Origin: Bdellovibrionia bacterium
GTDB taxonomy: Bacteria; Bdellovibrionota; UBA1018
Reading direction: 5' to 3'
DNA length: 14,787 nucleotides
Assembly: GCA_045805065.1 (NCBI GenBank)
Contig: JBJMMA010000202.1
Span: 1 to 14,787, forward strand
Of this stretch, positions 1-14,787 are shown piece by piece (the first letter of the stretch is position 1; every line of letters begins with the position of its first letter). The notes beneath the pieces are model-generated. The model worked only from the letters and a program-made list of their open reading frames with translations, was not told the DNA's origin and did no database searches. The position numbers and the translations under genes were made by a program.

Positions 1-749
1 ACCGTTTCCGCAATCAGACCCACCAGGTCAAACTCCTCGGTTTGCAGATGGAGCTTTTTTAGATTCAGCCGCGAGACATCGAGCATATCCTCGACAAGAT
101 GAACCAATCGCTCCACTTGTCTACCGGTTGATGCCACAAGTTTACGGGTAGTGGCAGGCTCGTAGATCTGAGCGTCACCTAAGTCAATCTTTCTCTGACT
201 GAGCTGCGTTTGAAGCCTGAGAGATGTGAGCGGAGTCTTGAGCTCATGGGATGCGATCGAGATGAACTCATCACGCATTCGGGTTGCCGCCACTTGCTTA
301 TCAAGCAGCTCTCTCACCAGATGCTGCTTCCTTCTTGCTCGCAATGCCACTTGAACCGCGCTCCGAAGCGTGATTCGGCGAAAAGGTCGTTCAAGAAGGC
401 TGATGTTTCCCGAAGGGCTGAAAGCTTCTGTGATCCGCATAATGGCCACCGTGGTGTTGCCCTTCGAGGTCATCAGAATGATCGGGATGTCAGACCAAGG
501 CGCCTGCTCTTCCAAGGCTTGGTTGAGTTGCTGGATCGCAGCAGAACTTAAAGCTTCATCTGCAATTAATAGAGTCGCGACTCGATCCGATGCGATTTCC
601 TGGCTCACTGCCTCGACGCTGGCCACGATACGGGTAGCTACCTTTTCTTCAGCCAGCGCGACAGCCATCAGAGTCGCGTCCTGCCCGGTTGGGGCCAGGA
701 TGACGATTCTCTCGTCACTACTAGGCCATGCATCAGTCAAGTTCGGCAT
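1..749 (-). CDS. Sensor histidine kinase with N-terminal degenerate (pseudo-)receiver domain and HisKA; 3' end runs off the window
   Basis: Not in the ORF track; translated by hand. ATG at 749 with GGGAG upstream. Reads MPNLTDAWPSSDERIVILAPTGQDA...WSDIPIILMTS...NISLLERPFRRITLRSAVQVALRARRKQ...RDEFISIASHELKTPLTSL...LVEDMLDVSRL and stays open to the left edge. H-box SHELKTPLT. Overlaps the end of the kaiC-like gene by 17 nt. Confidence 0.92.
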   Translation of the reverse strand, partial: MPNLTDAWPSSDERIVILAPTGQDATLMAVALAEEKVATRIVASVEAVSQEIASDRVATLLIADEALSSAAIQQLNQALEEQAPWSDIPIILMTSKGNTTVAIMRITEAFSPSGNISLLERPFRRITLRSAVQVALRARRKQHLVRELLDKQVAATRMRDEFISIASHELKTPLTSLRLQTQLSQRKIDLGDAQIYEPATTRKLVASTGRQVERLVHLVEDMLDVSRLNLKKLHLQTEEFDLVGLIAET

Positions 750-2244
750 TCACAGGACTCCCTTTAAGGTCCTGGCCGACCAATGCCGGTACCCCGGTGA
801 GGACGCCTTGGAAGTTTGTCAGAGGTTCGCCTACCGTGATTCCGCCTTTTTGGATTTTCAGCTCGCGAATCGTCGTCTCATGCATTCCGCCTCTTTTCTT
901 AATGACGGAAACAGCTTTTCTCACGCTGCCTACCGCTTCAAAAAAGCGGGTCACAATCACAGTGTCTGCGAGATAGGTCAGGTCAACCGGAGTCTGCATC
1001 AGGCCCATCATGCCTTGCTGTGCAAGCACAAGCAGCGTTACGACCCCTTGATTCCCCAAGAAAGCCAAGAGTTCGTGAAGCTGAAGGGTCAAGAACTCTT
1101 CCTGCGGCATAGCATGAAGATAACCATTCAAGCTATCGATCGAAACGACTTTAAGGTTTTCTTGAAGGACGCGAGTACGAATCAAATCCGCAAATTCTCC
1201 AGGCGAAAGTTCAGCAGGATCTATTTTCTGAATATGAAGCATGCCCGACTTGATATGCTTTTGAAGATCCATGCCCAGAGCTTCGGTGCGAGCCAACATC
1301 GTTTGAAGACTTTCCTCAAAAGCGTAGATGGCAGCCTTCTCGCCACGTTCAGCGGCAGCGTATGCAAACTGAATAGCCAGAGTCGACTTACCCGTGCCGG
1401 CAGGACCCATGAACAGACTGCTAGTGCCTGGATCAAGCCCACCCCCCAGCAAAGCATCGAGGTGAGGAATGCCGCTCGATGCCGGAGTTTCCCGAGTGTA
1501 GTCCCCCATATGGTCCGATGCGATCATTCGCGGGAACACCTTGAGTCCTCCCTTTCGAATCACATAATCGTGGTTGCCCCCGGTAAATTGGACGCCACGT
1601 AATTTTACGATGGAAATGCGACGCCTTTCGTCTCCGAACTCAGGGTGCAGTTTTTGAAGCTGGATCACGCCATGCACAATGCTTTGCACCTGAAGGTCGC
1701 GTGGAGCAGCAGTCAGATCATCCAAGAACAAGACAGTGCATGCTCTTTTGGAAAAGATCTGCTTGAGCGCCAAAATCTGGCGGCGGTAATTGAAAGCTGT
1801 CTCGGCCAGCATCCGCAATTCGGTCACCGAATCAAAAACTACGCGGCGAGGCTGCACGCGATCAATTTCATCGAGAACCAGACGCACGGTCTGATTCATC
1901 TCGACTTCGGAGGAATGGAAAACTGTATTTTGGGATTCAGGCTGAAGCTGATGCTCAATGGTCGAGAGATCAAAGAATTCGAGAGAACTGATGTCCCAGC
2001 CATGCGAATCGGAGACCGAACGCAGCTCGGTCTGAGTTTCAGAAAAGGTGATGTACAAACACTTTTCTCCAGACCTTGCGCCTTCGAGCAAGAACTGAAG
2101 AGCCAGAGTCGTCTTGCCCGTTCCCGGTTCACCTTGAACCAGATAGAGCCGGTCGCTCGGAAATCCCCCACCTAGAATCGTATCCAGACCGCCAATACCT
2201 GTTGCACTCAGCCCAGCTGGGCCTGACATCGTTTTCTTGCTCAT
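733..2244 (-). CDS. kaiC: KaiC-like double-domain RecA-superfamily ATPase
   Basis: Two RecA-type domains with Walker A GEPGTGKT and GPAGTGKS, catalytic-region motifs ITFSET and AFEES, Walker B VVFDS and VSIDS, and Arg-finger motifs IVKLRG and VIKKRG. Start placed at ATG 2244 because GAGGT lies 6 nt upstream; the ORF track uses GTG 2250. Confidence 0.93.
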   Translation of the reverse strand: MSKKTMSGPAGLSATGIGGLDTILGGGFPSDRLYLVQGEPGTGKTTLALQFLLEGARSGEKCLYITFSETQTELRSVSDSHGWDISSLEFFDLSTIEHQLQPESQNTVFHSSEVEMNQTVRLVLDEIDRVQPRRVVFDSVTELRMLAETAFNYRRQILALKQIFSKRACTVLFLDDLTAAPRDLQVQSIVHGVIQLQKLHPEFGDERRRISIVKLRGVQFTGGNHDYVIRKGGLKVFPRMIASDHMGDYTRETPASSGIPHLDALLGGGLDPGTSSLFMGPAGTGKSTLAIQFAYAAAERGEKAAIYAFEESLQTMLARTEALGMDLQKHIKSGMLHIQKIDPAELSPGEFADLIRTRVLQENLKVVSIDSLNGYLHAMPQEEFLTLQLHELLAFLGNQGVVTLLVLAQQGMMGLMQTPVDLTYLADTVIVTRFFEAVGSVRKAVSVIKKRGGMHETTIRELKIQKGGITVGEPLTNFQGVLTGVPALVGQDLKGSPVNAELD

Positions 2245-2419
2245 TCCCACACCTCAGAATGCCTCGATGTATCACAAAAACCCCGGCTACACTATGTGAT
2301 CTGTAGCCGCTTAAAGATAAAAACCAATCGTTTCCACGGTCCCTAATCCGGGCCAAAGCTTGCTCATGGTAGGTTTGAACATGCTCTTGCTCTTCAGGGC
2401 GCACTCACTTCTAAAACGA

Positions 2420-2881
2420 CTATAGGCTGACAGGAATCCCGTCTGAAGAGTCGGCTCGGTCAGCCGTAGCGCGAGACAACGCAAAGTTTGCCATCTCATC
2501 GTCTCCCTGACCGCAGTACTGCTGCACGACTTCCATCAGTGCATCCAGGCTCACTGGTTTCTTGATGTACCCCACGGCTTTTTCAACTGCTTTTGTATCG
2601 GCAAGCGCGGTCTTCGCAGGAAGGGCAGAAATCACAACAACTGGAAGCGAGGCAAACACTGTGTCAGCCTTTTGCTTTTCAAGGAACTCCCAGCCAGTCA
2701 ACGTAGGCATCATGAGATCCAGTAGGATCAGGCAAGGGCCAGGTATCTTTTCAAGAAGCAAAACTGCTTCGGCGCCATTGGCGGCGCTCGACACCGGATA
2801 ACCCTCGACTTCGAGAACTTGAACGATTGCTTCGCGGATGTCTCGATCGTCTTCGACTACCAAAATGCTTTTACAACGCAT
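2420..2881 (-). CDS. Single-domain CheY-like response regulator with a ~30-aa C-terminal tail
   Basis: ILVVEDD acidic pocket, ILLDLMMP phosphoacceptor Asp, VVVISA, YIKKPV. GAGG ribosome-binding site upstream of ATG 2881. Confidence 0.93.
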   Translation of the reverse strand: MRCKSILVVEDDRDIREAIVQVLEVEGYPVSSAANGAEAVLLLEKIPGPCLILLDLMMPTLTGWEFLEKQKADTVFASLPVVVISALPAKTALADTKAVEKAVGYIKKPVSLDALMEVVQQYCGQGDDEMANFALSRATADRADSSDGIPVSL

Positions 2882-6768: not shown

Positions 6769-7740
6769 ATGAAACTTTTTAAGAGCAGTCTCATTCTCAG
6801 TATTGCCCTTACTCTTGGCTTATCTAACGCTATGGCTACGCAACATCACCGCAAAGTGAGAGCTGCATTGCCACCCAACAACTTGCACCTCATGGATAAC
6901 CCAAGCCGCGTTCAAAACATCGATGAAAAGACGTTCAACGCCATCATCGATCAGGCTCAGGCCTACTTCACGCCAGTCTTCGCAAAACATAATGCCAAGC
7001 TGACGGTCGTCAGACGCTGGAACGACAGCACAGTCAATGCTTACGCTGAACAACAAGGCAGCAACTGGCTTGTCACGATGTTCGGTGGACTTGCCCGCCG
7101 CCCTGAAATCTCCGCAGACGGATTCGCTCTCGTGATCTGCCATGAAATCGGCCATCACCTCGGTGGTTACGCTTTCATCGACGATGATTGGGCGTCGACC
7201 GAAGGAAACTCTGATTACTTCTCTACCCAAGCTTGCGCTCGCGCTCTCTGGGGCAGACCAAGCCTGGCCAACCACTACGCAATCCGCTACGCCACTCGCC
7301 TGGAGCAGCAAGCTTGCGATGCGGTCTGGAAAGACCAGAACTCCCGCGAAGTTTGCTATCGCTCGATCAATGCCGGTCAATCGCTTGCAAATCTTCTTGC
7401 TGCGATCGGTGGCGAGAAACAGCCTCACATCGAGACTCCGGATCAAACCCAGGTTTCCTCGACCTACACCGAGCACCCTGCTGCTCAGTGCCGTCTGGAC
7501 ACCTACGTTCAAGGTGCTTTGTGCGCAAAGCCATTTGACCTCAACGTGATCCCAGGCCGCGGAAACTCCGCTGGCCAAGACAGCGCTGCTGCTGAGACCG
7601 AATCCATGAAGTATACCTGCTATACTTCCCAAGGATTCCAACTGGGCTTCCGCCCACGTTGCTGGTTCAAGCCTAAGATCGAGAATCCTTTCCACAGACA
7701 GGACTCGACCGAAATGACCCCAGTTCTTTCTCAGAACTAA
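6769..7740 (+). CDS. Secreted Cys-rich HExxH zinc metalloprotease (M48/gluzincin-like), 323 aa
   Basis: ATG 6769 with AGGAGA upstream. Signal peptide MKLFKSSLILSIALTLGLSNAMA, then VNAYA, CHEIGHH (HExxH at 7141-7155), a candidate third ligand in EGNSDY, a late HP motif, and multiple Cys. Confidence 0.85.
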   Translation: MKLFKSSLILSIALTLGLSNAMATQHHRKVRAALPPNNLHLMDNPSRVQNIDEKTFNAIIDQAQAYFTPVFAKHNAKLTVVRRWNDSTVNAYAEQQGSNWLVTMFGGLARRPEISADGFALVICHEIGHHLGGYAFIDDDWASTEGNSDYFSTQACARALWGRPSLANHYAIRYATRLEQQACDAVWKDQNSREVCYRSINAGQSLANLLAAIGGEKQPHIETPDQTQVSSTYTEHPAAQCRLDTYVQGALCAKPFDLNVIPGRGNSAGQDSAAAETESMKYTCYTSQGFQLGFRPRCWFKPKIENPFHRQDSTEMTPVLSQN

Positions 7741-7820: not shown

Positions 7821-8201
7821 ATGCGCGCAACGTTCTCTCAAATCTTCGTTTTGCTCTTCTCCCTACTCGCTTTGTCGCCACTGCACTCATATGCAGACGA
7901 ACCCGTAAAGCTTGCGATTGAAGTCGATATCCGGGGTGGCTTCGTAGGGTTTGATACTCCTGCGTTTGCTACGGTGCGCGCGGTCATGGCAAGCCTCATT
8001 ATGGACGGAACGCTTGCGCACTGGATCACCACTTCTCGCGGCATGGAAGGTGGCGGAACCTATTGCATGCAGTTTCATCCGGAATTCATCTCTCGCAAGT
8101 CTCGCGTGCTCGCGCAGTTCCAGAACATCCATGTGAACGAAGTTTCGACTGCTTACTCAGTTCGCGAACTTGAGCGATGTGAGATTCCCGCGCTGAAATA
8201 A
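7821..8201 (+). CDS. Small exported hypothetical protein (126 aa)
   Basis: ATG 7821 with GAGG upstream. Signal peptide MRATFSQIFVLLFSLLALSPLHSYA|D. Two Cys (GMEGGGTYC and ELERC) could form a disulfide. Confidence 0.75.
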   Translation: MRATFSQIFVLLFSLLALSPLHSYADEPVKLAIEVDIRGGFVGFDTPAFATVRAVMASLIMDGTLAHWITTSRGMEGGGTYCMQFHPEFISRKSRVLAQFQNIHVNEVSTAYSVRELERCEIPALK

Positions 8202-8225: not shown

Positions 8226-10511
8226 TCATTGAGTATGCAGTCTTGTTCGAAGGAAATCGACATGACACGAGACTGCTTGGATGGTCTTTGAACTTATCCC
8301 GCGCAATAAGAGCTTATTCAGGAATTCTCGATCCCGATAAAGCGAAGCTACAACCGATCTCTCATGAGCAGACAGTTCTTTGAGACTTTTCCGCTCGGCA
8401 TGGATCGCTCCCACTTTCTTGAGCCTGTCAAAAATCTGATCTGCCGCCACTTTCTGGATCATCACGGTTCTCTGCTCAAGCGGAAGGTCAGTCAGGACAA
8501 AATGAGAGTCTCCAGCAAGTTTTGCAATATCATCCAGAAGCAGCCTAACATCCTTGATTCGATCCAGACTTCCTATCAAAAGCATCGGATCCTTTTCGAT
8601 CACTTGGACTCCGATGCCCCAGTGATTCTTGAACTCAGCCAATTTGGGATCAAGATTCTCTTCAATGGATAAGCCGAGAATTACGGGAAAGGCGCTGATC
8701 ACTTTACCCCTGTCAGTAAAGTGTTTCCGAACCCAATCGGCCTTAGGGTCAAGCTTATTGGGGATCGAGTAGCTCAACACTTGCGGGAAGGAGCCAATCA
8801 CCTTTCCCGGGTTTTCGACACCGTGCTTGGCTAGCCATGAAAAAGTGTCATCGTTGTTTTCAATGGAATAACCGAGAAGCGCCGGGAAGGAATCGATCAG
8901 TTTTCCGACGTTTTGAATTCCTTGTTTTCTGAACCATTCAGCCCGGGGCTCAAGAGTATCTTTGACAGAATGAGTGATCACACGCGGATTGGTACTAAGC
9001 AATTTTCCAATGTCCTCAACTCCCTGCTTCTTCAGCCAGGCAACTGTTGGCTTGAGATTTTCTTCGACCGACAGGCCCAAGATGGATGGCTGCGAGCTCA
9101 GTGTTTTCGTGAGATCCTGAACTCCTTGCCGCTCAAGCCACTCAGCCGTAGGTTTGAGATTTTCCTCAAGGGAAAGACGTAGCACCGGAGGCCAGGCGTT
9201 GACCAGCTTTCCGACGTCCTTAACTCCTTTGCTCTTGAGCCAGTCCGCTTTGTCTTGGAGATCCTTCAGGGTATGACTTAGAAACTCCGGGTGATCCCCG
9301 ATGAATTCACCGATACTACTGACCTTCAGATCCTTCAGCCATTTTACCTTGGGATCAAGACTTTCCTCAGTGGAACGCCGGGCAACGACAAGTAAGGCCC
9401 GGGTAAGCCTTTCTGAAGTTGTGACTCCCTGTTTCTTGAGCCATTCAATATGATCTTTGAGCTCTTTTGTAGAGGTCCTGCCATCGACCACATCCAGGAT
9501 CTCTTCACGCTCAATGTATGCAAAACCTTCGTCTTTGAGGACCTTGATGAGTTCGTCCGTCTTAACGCTCGAGACGGTAGGGGTTAATTTTTCTCGCAAG
9601 GCGCCGACATAGATCGCGATTTCACGAGGCTTGTTTGGAATTTTCCCTTGGGCCTCGGCAATGTGAGAAAGCAGTTCGTGGATCTTATGATTGCGGTAGA
9701 GATCTGCGATCATCTTTCGTTCGAAAGGATGCAATCTGGCAAACTCTTCCCTCTTGAGTCCGATCGACTTCACATCTTTGAGACTTCTGATCAACTGACT
9801 CGCCGACCCGGTTCGGATCAGGTCCTTGCGTAGGTCAGGAGCCAGCGTTTCGAGATCAAAGTGCGGCTCCTCGGCGGTTTTCGCAATTTTGTCGAGAAGC
9901 AGCCTGAGCCTTAGAACCCTCAGAAGATCTGTTCCAAGAAGCTGCGGAGACTTTTCAATGTCGAGTATTCCAAGTCTCCAATGCTCCTTCAACTCCACGA
10001 GTGTGGGATCAAGATCGCCTTTAATGGAAAGAGCAAGTAGGTCCGGGTAGGCGCTGATCAGCTTTTTAGTACTTTTGAATCCCTGTTGATTTAACCATTG
10101 CACCTTATCTTCCAGGCTGCCGATGGAATCCGCGAAAAGGTCCGGATGGGAGCTCACAAGCTTTCCAGTATCGGTAACTCCCTGTTTTTCAAGCCACGCC
10201 ATTCGTTTGTCGAGATCGCCCTGGATAGGATGAGGGAGAGCGACTGGCAACACTTTGGCAAGCTTTTCAAAGTCGGTCACCCCGTGACTCTGAAGCCACT
10301 TAACATGGTGTTCAACGTATTCGTCGGAGTAAGTCCGATCTACCCTGCTGACAATCCGCTGAACCTGATTGACGGAGAACCCCAGCGATTTGAGGGCCAC
10401 GCGTATGGATAAAACCTCGCGCCCAAAGGAAATCTGAGTGCTCCCTATACCCACGAGAAGGGCAAGAATCAGGATTCGACAGAGTTTTGGCGGGCATCGC
10501 TTCAGAGACAT
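8226..10511 (-). CDS. mTERF-like tandem-repeat protein with predicted signal peptide (~761 aa)
   Basis: Eleven Trp-anchored 33-34-aa repeats with consensus WLxxxGVxDxGKLIxxxPxLLxxSIEENLxPxxx, resembling mTERF repeats. N-terminus MSLKRCPPKLCRILILALLVGIGSTQISFG|R. Start is ATG 10511 or TTG 10526. The CDS itself is secure; the family call is by eye. Confidence 0.8.
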   Translation of the reverse strand: MSLKRCPPKLCRILILALLVGIGSTQISFGREVLSIRVALKSLGFSVNQVQRIVSRVDRTYSDEYVEHHVKWLQSHGVTDFEKLAKVLPVALPHPIQGDLDKRMAWLEKQGVTDTGKLVSSHPDLFADSIGSLEDKVQWLNQQGFKSTKKLISAYPDLLALSIKGDLDPTLVELKEHWRLGILDIEKSPQLLGTDLLRVLRLRLLLDKIAKTAEEPHFDLETLAPDLRKDLIRTGSASQLIRSLKDVKSIGLKREEFARLHPFERKMIADLYRNHKIHELLSHIAEAQGKIPNKPREIAIYVGALREKLTPTVSSVKTDELIKVLKDEGFAYIEREEILDVVDGRTSTKELKDHIEWLKKQGVTTSERLTRALLVVARRSTEESLDPKVKWLKDLKVSSIGEFIGDHPEFLSHTLKDLQDKADWLKSKGVKDVGKLVNAWPPVLRLSLEENLKPTAEWLERQGVQDLTKTLSSQPSILGLSVEENLKPTVAWLKKQGVEDIGKLLSTNPRVITHSVKDTLEPRAEWFRKQGIQNVGKLIDSFPALLGYSIENNDDTFSWLAKHGVENPGKVIGSFPQVLSYSIPNKLDPKADWVRKHFTDRGKVISAFPVILGLSIEENLDPKLAEFKNHWGIGVQVIEKDPMLLIGSLDRIKDVRLLLDDIAKLAGDSHFVLTDLPLEQRTVMIQKVAADQIFDRLKKVGAIHAERKSLKELSAHERSVVASLYRDREFLNKLLLRGISSKTIQAVSCHVDFLRTRLHTQ
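8637..9461 (-). repeat. Protein-level tandem repeat array 2 (8 units)
   Basis: Anchor Trp at residues 362, 396, 429, 463, 497, 531, 564 and 598 (spacing 34,33,34,34,34,33,34). Confidence 0.88.
9996..10316 (-). repeat. Protein-level tandem repeat array 1 (3 units)
   Basis: Anchor Trp at residues 77, 111 and 144 of the 766-aa ORF-track translation (spacing 34, 33). Confidence 0.8.
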
Positions 10512-10604
10512 AAGTTCTCGTCTCAATATCGGCAGTTTAAGCGCAATGATTGAACGTAGTTCTCAGAATTTATGCCAGACCGCATTAAACGGCCCCCCAG
10601 GGAT

Positions 10605-11557: not shown

Positions 11558-12361
11558 GTGAATCGGAAAGACTTTTACAAACTGCTTTTCGTTCCAATAG
11601 GCCTGCTCCTCCTCAAGAACCGGGTAATCGGTCCGGCTCATTTATATAGCCAAACGCCGACCGCGCCTCAAAAGACGCTGGAGATCATGGTCGAAAATTC
11701 GGCGGAACCGTGGTCAAATCCAGATGGAACGGGATATGCCAATGACATCGTTGTCGCAGCATTTAAAGAAATGGGAGTCGACGTCCGCTTAAAGGTCGTG
11801 CCCTATTCACGGTGTAAAGCCGAGGCAATGGAGGGTAATACCACCGCTTGCGTCAGTATGAGCTGGCTGCCCGAGTTCAAAGGCCGTATCCAACTTGCCT
11901 CAAAAACGCTCATCGTCCTGGATGCGGATGTCTTTGAGAATGTCCACTCCCCTTTGCCAAGCACACCCAACCACAAATGCAAATTACCTGTCGGAACAAG
12001 AGTAGGTACGGTGATCGGCTATGAGTACCCAAAACAAGTCATGGATCTTCAAAGACAAGGCGTCATCTTTGAAAGTGTGAATTCAGACGGTCAAAACATC
12101 AATAAACTTGCGCGAAACCGAATCGACGCCGCAGTAGTCATTACCAACCACCACGAACCCAAGAACAAGAAGGTTCTTAAAGAGCACCAAGAGGCTAATG
12201 TGCGACTCGCTTTCAACTGCGGCACGGAGACTGGTACGATTGGATTCAGCCTGAAGAACCCGGATGGAGCTTGGGCGCGAAAGATTTTTGAATCCGGCTA
12301 TAACAAAATAGTCCAGAAAGATCTGCTAGCAGAGTTTGAGAAGAAATGGTTCGGTCACTAA
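11558..12361 (+). CDS. Extracytoplasmic solute-binding protein (family 3-like)
   Basis: EPWSNPDGTGYANDIVVAAF, VPYSRC, VGTVIGYEY and KLARNRIDAAV are typical of family-3 binding proteins. Likely start is GTG 11558 (MNRKDFYKLLFVPIGLLLL); the ORF track uses TTG 11540. Confidence 0.85.
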   Translation: MNRKDFYKLLFVPIGLLLLKNRVIGPAHLYSQTPTAPQKTLEIMVENSAEPWSNPDGTGYANDIVVAAFKEMGVDVRLKVVPYSRCKAEAMEGNTTACVSMSWLPEFKGRIQLASKTLIVLDADVFENVHSPLPSTPNHKCKLPVGTRVGTVIGYEYPKQVMDLQRQGVIFESVNSDGQNINKLARNRIDAAVVITNHHEPKNKKVLKEHQEANVRLAFNCGTETGTIGFSLKNPDGAWARKIFESGYNKIVQKDLLAEFEKKWFGH

Positions 12362-12747
12362 TGTAAAACGTGACACTTGACTGCGCTCAGCAAACCTTCG
12401 ATCGAAAAAGGTTTACTGACCCATCCCTCAGCCTGAATGTCTTTAGCTCTCTGTTCTGCGTTCGATGCCGCCGTCATTACCAACACAGGAATGCGATGTC
12501 CGTATTGCGAATGCAGATGGTTCGCAAATGTCCATCCATCCATCACTGGCATCGTCATATCGAGAAGGATCAAACTCGGGGACGGATGCGTTTGAAGATA
12601 CGTCAGCGCTTCCTGCCCGTTATTAGCCGAGATGACATGGTACCCTTCGGTTTGAAGCAAGAGTTCGACAGTAAATCGGATGTTCTCGTCGTCCTCAACA
12701 ATGAGTATATTAGCTGGGTCAATCTTAGCTGGCTCATTCAGTGTCAT
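12358..12747 (-). CDS. Single-domain CheY-like response regulator
   Basis: ILIVEDD, ILLDMTMPVMDG, LVMTA, WVSKPF. Overlaps the upstream kinase stop by ATGA, suggesting translational coupling. Confidence 0.95.
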   Translation of the reverse strand: MTLNEPAKIDPANILIVEDDENIRFTVELLLQTEGYHVISANNGQEALTYLQTHPSPSLILLDMTMPVMDGWTFANHLHSQYGHRIPVLVMTAASNAEQRAKDIQAEGWVSKPFSIEGLLSAVKCHVLH

Positions 12748-14525
12748 AGAGTTCCCCTCTTGACCGGAAACTCGATTTCGAAAGTGGCTCCCGCGCCTAC
12801 TTCACTCGCCACCCTGATGGCTCCACCATGCAGCTCAAGAATCAGGCGACAGATATAGAGTCCCAGACCTAACCCAGAGTGCCGCGCTGTCGCATCCGAC
12901 TTGACCCTGAAAAATCGGCTGAAAATCGCTTCCTGGACTTTCTTGGGAATGCCCGGCCCTTTGTCACTGATAGACATGCGAACCCGCTGATCTGATACCG
13001 GCCAAAGAACCACATCGATCGGGCTACTCTCTGGAGTATATTTAATGGCATTCTCGATGATATTGCTGACGACCTGAGTGATTCGTACCGGATCCACTTC
13101 TGCCTGAATGGCTCTATCCGGCATTCTCAATCTGATTTCTCGTTTAACTGCCTGATCACGAAAATTTTGCAAAATTTCACTGACTAGCTCGGTTATATTA
13201 ACGGTCTTAAAATGAAGAGTAAAACTTCCACGCTCAAGACGGCCCACATCCAAAAGGTCGTTAACCAACACCTTGAGTTGCTCGACTTGATTTTCAACTC
13301 TTCTCCAGATTTCCTCTGAGATTCCTTTTCCTGACTTGATCTGACGCTCGGCAAGCTGGAGCAACACAATGAGCGGTGTCAGAGGTGTCTTCAACTCATG
13401 AGCGGCAATATCCAAAAACTCAGACTTCATTCGATCAGCGGTTTCAGCTCTTTCTTTCGCGAACTGAAGCGACTCATGAGCCTTAACGCGATCCGTGACA
13501 TCGCGACTGGAAAGAATCGCCATCAGGCGCGAACCCGTATCGTACGCTCGTGCTGAAAGATCGGCAGGAAAGATGGTCTGATCCTTCCTGATGTGACGTC
13601 TCTCTCTGATTTCGATCTGTTCTCCTGCCTTCAGACTGCTTAACGCGGCCTGTGTTGACGCTTTATCGTCAGAAAGGTCTAATGCATTTAGCTGAAGCAG
13701 TTCTTCGCGTAGATATCCGTACATTCGGCTGGCAGCATCGTTTGCATCGATAATCTGGAGCGAATTGCGCTCGATGATCAGCAATGCGTCGGGATCAACC
13801 GAGAATAGTGTCCGATAGCGATCTTCGGATTGCTGAATATCGACTAAACGTCCCTGCAATTGCAAAACCATCTTCTCAATGGACGCACGCAGTGTTTCAA
13901 GCTCGCCCTGAAATGACTCGGTATCGATCTGAAAAGGACCGCCCCCCGAACTGACGCTCACCGCGTAACGCTCAACTTTGCGTAAAGGATTGAGGACGGA
14001 TCGCCAAAGAAAAAAATACAAGCTTACAACTAGAATAATATCGAGAAGCGAAATCAGAAGCGCAAAAACGATCGCATCATGCTTCAGGGAAGCGCGGACA
14101 AACCGCGGTGTGACATACAAATCAACCTTTCCGATCGTTTCATTTGAAATGGAAACCGGCAGACTTTCTTTCAATAACTCCCCGCTCGGAGAAAAGTCAT
14201 TCGATCGAACATTCTCCCAATTGGAGCCGCGCGATCGCGCTCGAACCTCACCGTTCGCTTCAACACGAATGCCAGCGACATAGGTGTCCTGCATTGCCCC
14301 ATCCAAGATCTTGTCAATCTGCGCATTGTCGAAGTTCCAAAGCGGCCAAGCAAGACTTGTGGCTATTTGTTTTGCGTCCGTACTGAGCTCGTAGCGAAGC
14401 CCTGACCACTTCGCTTCTTTCTCGTTAATATGCCGTACAACTCCGAACGCACCGAGGAATACCGTAGTCACGGCGACGATATAGACTCCCGCGGCCACTG
14501 AAATCGAAGTGTTCCGTGCATGCAT
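12744..14525 (-). CDS. Membrane sensor histidine kinase (TM-periplasmic domain-TM-HAMP-PAS-HisKA-HATPase), 593 aa
   Basis: ATG 14525 with GGAG upstream. Two TM segments, a HAMP-like region (NPL...GELETL), PAS (DANDAASRMYGY...RKDQTIFP...SRDVT), H-box AAHELKTPLT, N-box NIIENAIKY, G1 DKGPGI and G2 GLGLGL. Confidence 0.95.
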   Translation of the reverse strand: MHARNTSISVAAGVYIVAVTTVFLGAFGVVRHINEKEAKWSGLRYELSTDAKQIATSLAWPLWNFDNAQIDKILDGAMQDTYVAGIRVEANGEVRARSRGSNWENVRSNDFSPSGELLKESLPVSISNETIGKVDLYVTPRFVRASLKHDAIVFALLISLLDIILVVSLYFFLWRSVLNPLRKVERYAVSVSSGGGPFQIDTESFQGELETLRASIEKMVLQLQGRLVDIQQSEDRYRTLFSVDPDALLIIERNSLQIIDANDAASRMYGYLREELLQLNALDLSDDKASTQAALSSLKAGEQIEIRERRHIRKDQTIFPADLSARAYDTGSRLMAILSSRDVTDRVKAHESLQFAKERAETADRMKSEFLDIAAHELKTPLTPLIVLLQLAERQIKSGKGISEEIWRRVENQVEQLKVLVNDLLDVGRLERGSFTLHFKTVNITELVSEILQNFRDQAVKREIRLRMPDRAIQAEVDPVRITQVVSNIIENAIKYTPESSPIDVVLWPVSDQRVRMSISDKGPGIPKKVQEAIFSRFFRVKSDATARHSGLGLGLYICRLILELHGGAIRVASEVGAGATFEIEFPVKRGTL

Positions 14526-14589
14526 CGGTGTTCTCCGCGCCGAGTGTAGCGTAGCGGACGCAATGACGTAAAGGCTCAACGCGTTTTGA

Positions 14590-14787
14590 TCAGAACAAGT
14601 GGGTCTGCGCGTAAATAAATCCAAATACGGCGATGCCTGTCACCGGGGATCCATTGTCGCTGGAGACGCCAATTCCGCCGATGACATTCTTCACAAACGC
14701 GTAATTTCCCATTAAAGCGGTTTCTCCAACTTCACTCACTCCACCAAAGTAATCCAATGCAAAGCCGAAACGATTTAACAATGGAGA
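14590..14787 (-). CDS. 3' end of a probable outer-membrane beta-barrel protein (5' end outside the window)
   Basis: Frame is open from the right edge (SPLLNRFGFALDYFGG...) to TGA at 14592-14590. Alternating Gly/aromatic strands and a terminal ...FGFIYAQTHLF ending in Phe resemble a beta-signal. Confidence 0.55.
   Translation of the reverse strand, partial: SPLLNRFGFALDYFGGVSEVGETALMGNYAFVKNVIGGIGVSSDNGSPVTGIAVFGFIYAQTHLF

What the first reader, a model, noticed from the sequence alone, without database searches (positions are those of the whole stretch)
10420..10511. The mTERF-like protein appears to be exported, a candidate nucleic-acid-targeting effector
Seen: a basic n-region (MSLKRCPPKLCR), hydrophobic core (ILILALLVGIG) and plausible cleavage site (SFG|R). 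A nucleic-acid-binding solenoid has no obvious target in its own periplasm. Inference: it may act on the DNA, RNA or ribosomes of a prey bacterium or a eukaryotic host organelle, analogous to TAL effectors, or it may be a solenoid repurposed for protein binding.
Basis: partly seen in the sequence, partly recalled or inferred. Interest (0 to 1): 0.75.

Follow-up and report, generated by a model that had tools for sequence, protein, structure and literature searches.

The report
Exported mTERF-repeat protein of a predatory-type bacterium
A soil bacterium of the Bdellovibrio phylum encodes a protein built from the helical repeats that eukaryotes use to bind organelle DNA and RNA, but here it carries a bacterial export signal, as do nearly all of its bacterial relatives, so it very probably works outside the cytoplasm on a target that is still unknown.

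Summary
Window 8226-10511 (minus strand) encodes a 761-residue protein. Its first 30 residues (10422-10511) are a textbook Sec/signal-peptidase-I signal: four basic residues, an 11-residue hydrophobic core, and S-F-G before the cut.

The rest is a true mTERF protein: Pfam PF02536 at E 3.6e-41, a confident model, and best fold matches to human MTERF3 and MTERF1.

It belongs to a previously undescribed family, mostly from metagenomes. All six named members lie in two Bdellovibrionota genomes. The family has 1 to about 8 modules, each made of mTERF repeats plus a family-specific helical cap, and a lone conserved cysteine near the C-terminus.

21 of 26 members examined have the hydrophobic N-terminal segment. 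The other five are fragments or have doubtful starts. A 42%-identical homologue aligns from residue 1. The family is cysteine-poor, and the genome holds a complete type II secretion operon.

So export is well supported (about 0.85). The "nucleic-acid-targeting effector" reading remains inference (about 0.4 for nucleic acid as ligand, 0.15-0.2 for prey as target). A eukaryotic-organelle target is unlikely.

The only bacterial mTERF-like proteins in print (pTERF, Bacillota, NAR 2024) are much more divergent, and that paper mentions no signal peptide.

The scan had not noted this family before.

The parts
8226..10511 (-). Whole gene: 761 codons plus stop; an exported two-module mTERF-repeat protein
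   Evidence: ORF list and translation. Pfam PF02536 E 3.6e-41, 141.5 bits against a cut-off of 23.1. It is the only mTERF locus in the genome.
10422..10511 (-). Signal peptide, residues 1-30: n-region 10476-10511, h-region 10443-10475, c-region 10422-10442, with the likely cut after S-F-G
   Evidence: Sequence. Heuristic scores. Conserved from residue 1 in P0024. N-terminal hydrophobic core present in 21 of 26 family members.
10524..10526 (-). Alternative in-frame TTG start five codons upstream; it would only lengthen the n-region
   Evidence: P0024 begins M-S-L like the ATG form.
10512..10604 (-). 93-nt spacer to the upstream PhzF-family gene on the same strand. It holds a weak GAG/GAGA Shine-Dalgarno-like stretch 6-13 nt before the ATG. 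No terminator or sigma-70-like promoter was found in it.
9987..10421 (-). Module A repeats, residues 31-175: about 4-5 mTERF motifs with conserved prolines at 123 and 156 (the next, at 189, lies in the cap)
9582..9986 (-). Module A cap, residues 176-310: a terminal mTERF motif plus the family-specific helical extension. It has Ile where the last cap has Cys.
   Evidence: phmmer of cap against cap, E 1.1e-16; alignments A4 and A6
8631..9581 (-). Module B repeats, residues 311-627: about 9 mTERF motifs with prolines every 33-34 residues from 408 to 609 (the next, at 642, lies in the cap). It begins exactly where the mature chain of the single-module homologue P0017 begins.
   Evidence: AF2 model with pLDDT 87.2. 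Foldseek matches to MTERF3 and MTERF1.
8229..8630 (-). Module B cap, residues 628-761: a terminal mTERF motif plus about 95 residues of family-specific helices with no clear structural relative
   Evidence: AF2 pLDDT 89.5. Best VIA Z 5.4 and no Foldseek match at E <= 1e-3. Its first motif aligns with the end of MTERF3.
8265..8267 (-). Cys749, the only cysteine of the mature protein. A cysteine sits 5-32 residues from the C-terminus in 24 of 25 family members.

Best explanation
The gene encodes a soluble alpha-solenoid of the mTERF fold. The Sec translocon takes it across the inner membrane, and signal peptidase I cuts it near residue 30.

The mature protein has two modules, about 5 and about 9 mTERF motifs long. 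Each module is closed by a family-specific helical cap, and the chain ends with a lone cysteine.

It belongs to a patchy, fast-diverging and locally expanded family of exported mTERF proteins in Bdellovibrionota.

I think it most likely binds an extended nucleic acid in its groove outside the predator's cytoplasm. The target would be prey-derived or environmental DNA or RNA, met either in the periplasm or after release through the type II secretion system.

Shown here: the mTERF identity and fold, the export signal and its conservation, the taxonomic setting, and the T2SS. Inferred: cleavage, release from the cell, the ligand and the target organism.
For: mTERF identity:
- Pfam E 3.6e-41.
- The family profile hits human MTERF3 at E 3.7e-18.
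- The model (pLDDT 87.2) best matches MTERF3 3m66 (TM 0.66 on the target) and DNA-bound MTERF1 3n6s/3mva.

Export:
- The signal is tripartite.
- It is conserved from residue 1 in P0024.
- 21 of 26 relatives have the hydrophobic N-terminal core. These include the three found in other genomes of the phylum.
- P0017's mature N-terminus aligns with the start of module B, so modules behave as independently exported units.
- Mature-chain cysteine is 0.30% in the family, against 1.03% in the genome's long ORFs and 1.66% in the eukaryote-type hits.
- The genome has a complete GspC-M operon.

Ligand:
- Every characterised mTERF binds DNA or RNA (established knowledge; PDB titles).
- Bacterial pTERFs bind dsDNA at nanomolar Kd (PMC11417379, section 53 read).
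- Three to four basic positions per repeat are kept at equivalent places in the bacterial and the eukaryote-type units.
- 19 of 21 mature family members have pI above 8.2.

Setting:
- The six named homologues lie in two MAGs, labelled Pseudobdellovibrionaceae and Bdellovibrionota.
- The G152 protein is identical to the one labelled Bdellovibrionota.
- The neighbouring PhzF gene's first named hits are Pseudobdellovibrionaceae.
Against: - No predictor such as SignalP was run, and no experiment bears on cleavage or release.
- The residue after the proposed cut is Arg, which is not ideal for Sec export.
- The query's repeat regions are nearly neutral (pI 6.7-7.2), and the net positive charge sits in the caps.
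- Two family members are neutral overall.
- No nuclease, competence or secretion gene is linked to the gene, here or in the three related loci.
- Helical repeat proteins outside the cytoplasm usually bind proteins or glycans (general knowledge).
- How a T2SS substrate would reach prey cytoplasmic nucleic acid is unknown.
- Three relatives (P0106, P0061, P0093) lack the signal, and I could not show that they are truncated.
- The family is rare: 4 of 401 sampled genomes of the phylum, and 0 of 60 closest relatives.
Confidence: 0.4

Rival explanations
1. The protein is exported, but the solenoid has been repurposed. It would be a periplasmic, surface or secreted scaffold that binds a protein, peptidoglycan or polysaccharide of the envelope or of prey, not nucleic acid.
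For: - The repeat regions of the query are near neutral (pI 6.7-7.2).
- The family added a cap of unknown fold that eukaryotic mTERFs lack.
- Paralogue expansion and variable module number resemble surface or adhesin-like families.
- Neighbouring genes encode an exported HExxH protease-like protein and a small exported protein.
- MTERF4 also uses its fold to hold a protein partner, NSUN4 (PDB titles).
Against: - No mTERF is known whose main ligand is not nucleic acid.
- The basic repeat positions are conserved between the bacterial and the eukaryote-type units.
- Most mature members are basic.
Confidence: 0.3
2. The protein is not released. The N-terminal segment stays uncleaved as a signal anchor, tethering the solenoid to the inner membrane with the repeats facing the periplasm.
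For: - The uncharged run is 18 residues long (13-30).
- Arg at +1 could hinder cleavage.
- No cleavage predictor was available.
Against: - The strictly hydrophobic core is only 11 residues and is followed by helix-breaking G-I-G and a polar c-region.
- Relatives show clean A-x-A-type sites, for example SQA|RE, AYA|HT, SWA|TD and AHA|VV.
Confidence: 0.1
3. The protein is a cytoplasmic DNA-binding regulator like the Bacillota pTERFs, and the hydrophobic N-terminus is a start-codon artefact.
For: - pTERF1 and pTERF2 are DNA-binding bacterial mTERF-like proteins.
- An in-frame GTG (Val39, read) lies downstream of the hydrophobic segment.
- Three relatives show no signal.
Against: - The N-terminus is conserved at the protein level from residue 1 in P0024.
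- The signal recurs in 21 of 26 members with unrelated sequences.
- The family is cysteine-poor.
- The GAGG before that GTG lies 15-18 nt away, too far for a ribosome-binding site.
Confidence: 0.07
4. The protein is an effector aimed at a eukaryotic host. It would enter mitochondria or plastids and interfere with organelle transcription, mimicking host mTERFs.
For: - The closest non-bacterial relatives are eukaryotic: Symbiodiniaceae, a cryptophyte and plants, at 33-44% identity over the repeats.
- The family is patchy in bacteria, as expected for a gene acquired from eukaryotes.
Against: - All six named carriers are in two Bdellovibrionota MAGs, and the runs holding fragments are labelled soil metagenome.
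- A Sec signal is atypical for injected effectors.
- TssC and VirB4 were not found.
- The gene's GC (0.493) equals that of its flanks.
Confidence: 0.05

Closest known systems
Eukaryotic mTERF family (Pfam PF02536; human MTERF3 PDB 3M66, MTERF1-DNA 3MVA/3N6S, MTERF4-NSUN4 4FP9)
   Same: - Same Pfam family, well above threshold.
- Same three-helix motif with a conserved proline, and the same superhelical fold.
- The terminal motif aligns with the end of MTERF3.
   Different: - Encoded on a bacterial contig.
- Carries a Sec signal in place of an organelle presequence.
- Regular 33-34-residue tandem repeats.
- Two modules, each with an extra cap of about 95 residues that has no known relative.
- A lone C-terminal cysteine.
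Expanded mTERF proteins of dinoflagellates (records labelled Symbiodinium, Durusdinium, Cladocopium)
   Same: - They are the nearest non-bacterial sequences: 33-44% identity, with the same S-I-E-E-N-L-K-P..W-L consensus.
- Basic positions are shared.
   Different: - Their unit is two residues longer.
- They carry an unrelated N-terminal domain.
- They lack the cap.
- They are cysteine-rich: 1.66% against 0.30%.
pTERF, prokaryotic mTERF-like DNA-binding tandem repeat proteins (PMC11417379, NAR 2024; section 53 read)
   Same: - Bacterial proteins with tandem mTERF-like repeats.
- They show that such a solenoid can bind DNA in a bacterial protein.
   Different: - pTERFs come from Bacillota (rumen MAGs).
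- They are only 9-18% identical to eukaryotic mTERFs and lack the canonical proline/leucine pattern, according to the paper.
- No signal peptide is mentioned (0 occurrences of the term in the main text).
- I held no pTERF sequence, so direct homology was not tested.
- The paper's supplementary tables were not opened.
TAL effectors (AvrBs3, dHax3)
   Different: - No fold-level match: TALE chains score E about 0.9-3 with probability 0.14 or less.
- No repeat-variable diresidue was seen.
- It has a Sec signal instead of a type III signal.
- No nuclear localisation or activation domain was seen.
Sec-dependent type II secretion substrates of Gram-negative bacteria
   Same: A cleavable-looking Sec signal on a soluble protein, in a genome with a complete Gsp operon.
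   Different: T2SS substrates have no recognisable linear signal, so dependence on the T2SS cannot be read from sequence. Known substrates are mostly hydrolases and toxins, not nucleic-acid-type solenoids (general knowledge).

Membership tests
mTERF (Pfam PF02536) | Match to the family HMM above the curated cut-off | tested here: met
   141.5 bits against a cut-off of 23.1, E 3.6e-41. Nine relatives scanned also pass, at 25.1-188.7 bits.
mTERF (Pfam PF02536) | Repeated ~30-35-residue motifs of helices with a conserved proline | tested here: met
   Prolines lie every 33-34 residues at 408-642 and at 123/156/189. Each model unit is a long helix, a short helix and a short turn-helix.
mTERF (Pfam PF02536) | Superhelical fold like MTERF1/MTERF3 | tested here: met
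   Foldseek: 3m66 at E 2.8e-5 with TM 0.66 on the target; 3n6s and 3mva at TM 0.56-0.58; all top 17 rows are mTERF chains.
mTERF (Pfam PF02536) | Binds DNA or RNA | not testable with these tools
   Only indirect evidence: conserved basic repeat positions and pI 8.96 for the mature chain.
mTERF (Pfam PF02536) | Nucleus-encoded and organelle-targeted (the family as described in the literature) | tested here: not met
   The contig carries bacterial genes and the protein has a Sec-type signal. Passages read in PMC12977773 state that mTERFs are absent from bacteria.
Sec / signal peptidase I signal peptide | Basic n-region, 7-15-residue hydrophobic h-region, polar c-region with small residues at -3 and -1 | tested here: met
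   Four K/R in residues 1-12; ILILALLVGIG; S-F-G or G-I-G sites.
Sec / signal peptidase I signal peptide | Not a lipoprotein signal (lipobox) and not a Tat signal (twin arginine) | tested here: met
   Cys6 and Cys11 are preceded by K-R and K-L, and there is no R-R motif (read).
Sec / signal peptidase I signal peptide | Score from a trained predictor (SignalP, DeepTMHMM) and demonstrated cleavage | not testable with these tools
   No such predictor is offered; only my own heuristic was run.
pTERF (PMC11417379) | Sequence homology to pTERF1/pTERF2 | not tested
The Atlas look-up lists Bacillota mTERF clusters at score 0.86, which is a lead only.
TAL effectors | TALE repeat fold and a type III secretion signal | tested here: not met
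   TALE chains match at E about 0.9-3 with probability 0.14 or less. The N-terminus is a Sec signal.
Type II secretion substrate | Sec or Tat signal, plus a T2SS in the same genome | tested here: met
   Signal. Operon on contig C34 with a GspC-like gene, D, E, F, G, pseudopilins, K, L and M.
Type II secretion substrate | Release into the medium depends on the T2SS | not testable with these tools
   Needs secretome work in a cultured carrier or a surrogate.

The most novel reading that the evidence does not exclude
Predatory Bdellovibrionota secrete a family of modular mTERF solenoids, acquired from eukaryotes and then expanded. After Sec and T2SS export, these proteins would bind prey DNA or RNA in a sequence-reading manner, blocking or organising prey nucleic acid during attack. 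The variable repeat arrays would track prey range, and a C-terminal cysteine would couple two chains. That would be a secreted, potentially programmable nucleic-acid-binding effector class outside the TALE paradigm.
Probability: 0.15. Interest if true: 0.85.

Novelty: new variant of a known kind. Interest (0 to 1): 0.6.

Why it matters
Two papers bear on the field's view. Passages read in PMC12977773 (2026) treat mTERF proteins as eukaryote-only. Section 53 of PMC11417379 (2024) presents very divergent Bacillota proteins as the first prokaryotic homologues.

Here a canonical mTERF protein, recognised by Pfam and sharing the MTERF1/MTERF3 fold, sits in a bacterial genome. With its relatives it forms a family whose hallmark is an export signal.

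If these proteins bind nucleic acid outside the cell, they would be a new kind of secreted factor in bacterial predation, and a source of regular 33-residue DNA- or RNA-binding repeats. If they bind something else, they show the mTERF fold recruited to a new task.

Either way the family bears on the origin and horizontal movement of mTERF genes. It also gives simple first experiments: an export assay, and an EMSA with the mature protein.

Tried and rejected
- **Related loci in public collections.** Two scans of genome contigs found no confirmed relative. Two scans of metagenome contigs and one of viral contigs found none either. As a result I could not see the DNA context of the closest homologues P0017 and P0024. 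I also could not survey phyla other than Bdellovibrionota.
- **Mobile elements.** tblastn of module B against plasmids and phages gave no match.
- **Sequencing runs.** Four runs of one study, labelled soil metagenome, hold short identical fragments. The best holds 0.21 of the sampled words. No RNA holder was listed, and laying the contigs showed no variants. This gives no evidence on expression and may come from the source sample itself.
- **Cap homodimer.** The complex-prediction job on two copies of the cap gave no verdict.
- **Fold of the cap.** VIA-align wide reached at most Z 5.4, within the range of common helical arrangements. Foldseek found nothing at E <= 1e-3.
- **ESM Atlas.** All feature scores were 0.86 or lower, so they are leads only.
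- **Synteny in the same-genus genome G001.** The PhzF orthologue is cut by a contig end, and the protease homologue sits on a 2.2-kb contig. The absence of the gene there says nothing about insertion.
- **CaaX-type prenylation box.** Rejected, because the conserved cysteine lies 5-32 residues from the end rather than 4.
- **Lipoprotein and Tat signals.** Rejected from the sequence.
- **Tree of bacterial against eukaryotic mTERFs.** Not attempted, because repeat arrays cannot be aligned position for position. The direction of transfer stays open.
- **Earlier notes of this scan.** A word search found none on mTERF.
Full report
**1. The observation**

The finding lies on the minus strand. The ORF list shows one long frame, 8226-10526 (766 codons from a TTG). 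Its translation has an ATG five codons further in, at 10511, which gives 761 residues.

From that ATG the protein begins MSLKRCPPKLCR-ILILALLVGIG-STQISFG-RE. It is encoded by 10422-10511.

- The n-region has four basic and no acidic residues.
- The best 8-residue hydrophobic window scores 3.77 on the Kyte-Doolittle scale. In a crude proxy proteome (1868 ORFs of 300 or more codons, from the first Met) only 11.6% reach 3.0 within the first 42 residues.
- Small residues stand at -3/-1 in S-F-G|R and in G-I-G|S.
- Neither cysteine is preceded by a lipobox, and there is no twin arginine.
- Starting at the upstream TTG would only lengthen the n-region.
- The next in-frame start candidates that would remove the segment are a GTG at Val39 and the Met at 109. 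That GTG has only a GAGG 15-18 nt upstream (read).

**2. What the protein is**

Pfam assigns it to mTERF (PF02536) at E 3.6e-41, 141.5 bits against a cut-off of 23.1. The two matches in the whole 4.2-Mb assembly both lie in this ORF.

The chain is an internal duplication. Module A is residues 31-310 and module B is 311-761. Each module consists of mTERF motifs with a conserved proline every 33-34 residues: 123/156/189 in module A, and 408 to 642 in module B. Each module is then closed by a conserved "cap". The two caps match each other at E 1e-16.

An AlphaFold2 model of residues 331-761, built on a 14-row alignment, has mean pLDDT 87.2 and pTM 0.75 and is all-helical.

- Foldseek against the PDB ranks human MTERF3 (3m66, E 2.8e-5, TM 0.66 on the target) first.
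- DNA-bound MTERF1 (3n6s, 3mva and mutants) and MTERF4 follow. All top 17 rows are mTERF chains.
- TAL-effector chains appear only at E about 1, with probability 0.14 or less.
- A profile of the family hits MTERF3 by sequence at E 3.7e-18. That alignment shows the first part of the cap is the ordinary terminal mTERF motif.
- The remaining ~95 residues of the cap, modelled alone at pLDDT 89.5, have no convincing structural relative. The best VIA Z is 5.4, and Foldseek finds nothing at E <= 1e-3.

**3. Relatives**

A word-indexed search of 5.8 billion proteins found only 14 others. All look eukaryotic, and one is named as a cryptophyte protein.

The exhaustive HMMER search of 1.84 billion cluster representatives found 1513 proteins at E <= 1e-3 and 60 at E <= 1e-30. 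Most of the top hits are of a type that a later search names as Symbiodinium, Durusdinium and Cladocopium mTERFs. One is a plant protein.

At the very top, however, is a different group that shares the cap:
- P0017: 449 aa, 43% identical over query residues 311-761.
- P0018: 894 aa, four modules.
- P0019.
- P0024: aligns to query 1-289.
- About a dozen more.

Architectures vary. Some have one module. P0018 has four, and a 2097-residue protein has about eight. One has a 650-residue unknown domain in front. Nine members scanned all pass the Pfam mTERF cut-off.

**4. Who carries them**

The sources give names for six members.
- Five belong to one MAG labelled Pseudobdellovibrionaceae bacterium. 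Two of them have adjacent locus tags.
- One belongs to a MAG labelled Bdellovibrionota bacterium.

The latter protein is letter-for-letter the ORF found in genome G152. The genome search classes G152 in the same phylum as the window's genome. The first named hits of the neighbouring PhzF gene are also Pseudobdellovibrionaceae, at 57-60% identity. NCBI places that family, which includes Bdellovibrio, in Bdellovibrionota. This agrees with earlier notes of the scan on other contigs of this genome.

The family is rare and patchy.
- PF02536 was found in 0 of 60 nearest relatives.
- The family profile was found in 4 of 401 sampled genomes of the phylum, the window's own included. The carriers fall in three different families.
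- The gene's GC (0.493) matches the window (0.505) and the genome (0.517).
- No copy was found on plasmids, phages or viral contigs.
- In the same-genus genome the region is broken by contig ends, so synteny is uninformative.

**5. Is the family exported?**

I examined 26 members: the query, 22 database proteins with the cap, one further related fragment (P0089), and the two extra ORFs from genomes G106 and G091.

- 21 have an N-terminal hydrophobic core. 18 pass all four of my criteria (core, net positive n-region, position, and a -3/-1 site).
- The three partial failures still show a core followed by A-x-A-like sites.
- The five without a core are P0044 (starts at a contig edge beside its paralogue P0184), P0089 (starts mid-repeat on a 1.2-kb contig), and P0106, P0061 and P0093. 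I could not settle the true starts of those last three.
- About 29-40% of long ORFs in this genome pass the core criterion alone. So 21 of 21 apparently complete N-termini is far beyond chance, although the members are kin.

Three further observations point the same way.
- P0024 aligns with the query from residue 1 without a gap, with 11 of the first 30 residues identical. The signal is therefore translated and conserved. P0024 sits on a 1076-nt contig and is probably cut at its C-end.
- The mature N-terminus of single-module P0017, just after its SQA|RE site, aligns with query residue 311, the start of module B. Modules thus exist as separately exported proteins, and the query looks like a fusion in which the second signal was lost.
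- The family is cysteine-poor. Mature chains hold 0.30% Cys, against a mean of 1.03% in the genome's long ORFs and 1.66% in 14 eukaryote-type hits. The query has a single Cys in 731 mature residues.

**6. Possible routes out of the cell**

The genome has four secretins. On contig C34 it has a complete type II secretion operon: a GspC-like protein, GspD with an N0 domain, E, F, G, three further pseudopilins, K, L and M.

TssC (T6SS) and VirB4 (T4SS) were not found in this 94%-complete assembly. An injectisome was not searched for.

The route Sec, then periplasm, then T2SS is therefore available, but its use is not shown.

**7. What it might bind**

All characterised mTERFs act on DNA or RNA (established knowledge; see the titles). 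The only published bacterial mTERF-like proteins, pTERF1 and pTERF2 from Bacillota MAGs, bind specific dsDNA with nanomolar affinity (PMC11417379, section 53 read).

In the bacterial family, unit positions +3, +8 and +17 (counted from the L of L-x-P) are K/R in 66-77% of 35 units, and +13 in 34%. The 127 eukaryote-type units have basic residues at equivalent places, allowing for their two extra residues. Mature members are mostly basic: 19 of 21 have pI above 8.2, and the query has 8.96.

Against this, the query's repeat regions alone are near neutral (pI 6.7-7.2), with the charge in the caps. There is no conserved gene neighbourhood in the four loci seen. Extracytoplasmic helical repeat proteins commonly bind proteins or glycans (general knowledge).

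I therefore put nucleic acid as the ligand at about 0.4, and a non-nucleic-acid ligand at about 0.3.

**8. Comparison with what is known, and novelty**

The protein is a member of the mTERF family by sequence, motif and fold. It fails only the literature's descriptive feature of being a nucleus-encoded organelle protein.

- A 2026 survey states that mTERFs are absent from bacterial genomes (PMC12977773, passages read).
- The 2024 pTERF paper says no prokaryotic homologue was known before it. It describes proteins only 9-18% identical to eukaryotic mTERFs, and does not use the term signal peptide. I did not open its supplements.
- Full-text searches for mTERF with Bdellovibrio, and for the spelled-out name with "predatory bacteria", returned no paper. 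Other searches found nothing on exported bacterial mTERFs.

I therefore class this as a new variant of a known kind: a canonical mTERF family in Bdellovibrionota, defined by an export signal, a novel cap and modular concatenation.

The nearest non-bacterial sequences are eukaryotic, and the bacterial distribution is patchy. This fits acquisition from a eukaryote, but I did not test the direction.

**9. Verdict**

- Export is well supported, at about 0.85.
- The effector and nucleic-acid reading is plausible but untested.
- The eukaryotic-organelle version is unlikely.
- The TALE analogy holds only at the level of "secreted repeat solenoid".

Noticed in passing
window 8265-8267 (Cys749) and the C-termini of P0017, P0018, P0019, P0027, P0028 and others: A cysteine lies 5-32 residues from the C-terminus in 24 of 25 family members. 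In 14 of the 25 it is the only cysteine of the mature chain. Internal caps of multi-module proteins lack it, so it marks the end of the whole protein rather than each module. It could form an intermolecular disulfide or another covalent link outside the cytoplasm.
   Followed up: partly
window 6769-7740 (+): A cysteine-rich protein with its own signal peptide (MKLFKSSLILSIALTLGLSNAMA) and an HEIGHH zinc-protease motif. It has only a weak Peptidase_M48 hit (E 0.003, below cut-off). It converges on the mTERF gene. A 43%-identical homologue exists in the same-genus genome.
   Followed up: partly
window 7821-8201 (+): A small ORF of about 126 residues with a clear signal peptide (MRATFSQIFVLLFSLLALSPLHSYA) and no Pfam family. 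It ends 24 nt before the stop codon of the mTERF gene on the other strand.
   Followed up: no
L013 (own genome, contig C34, 22000-39000): A complete type II secretion operon on the minus strand: a GspC-like protein with PDZ, GspD, E, F, G, three pseudopilins, K, L and M.
   Followed up: yes
P0027, P0277, P0404, P0098, P0407 (one NCBI MAG); P0184 and P0044 (one JGI contig): The family is locally expanded. At least five paralogues lie in one MAG labelled Pseudobdellovibrionaceae, two of them with adjacent locus tags. Two paralogues share a single 9.6-kb metagenome contig, and three clusters share a 21-kb contig length.
   Followed up: partly
P0009, P0013, P0023, P0030, P0032 and similar eukaryote-type hits: Many dinoflagellate-type mTERFs also begin with a hydrophobic, signal-like segment, followed by a conserved P-P-x-W-W...A-E-x-E-L-L-S domain. 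This may be the ER-type leader of a plastid-targeting presequence.
   Followed up: no
window 3-2881 and 12358-14624: The contig ends carry signalling genes. At one end are a KaiC-like double ATPase with a HisKA kinase and a response regulator. At the other are a HAMP-PAS histidine kinase with a response regulator.
   Followed up: no
P0125 (874 aa, JGI): One family member carries a ~650-residue N-terminal domain with no Pfam match between its signal peptide and a short mTERF-plus-cap module. This fusion might hint at the family's function.
   Followed up: no
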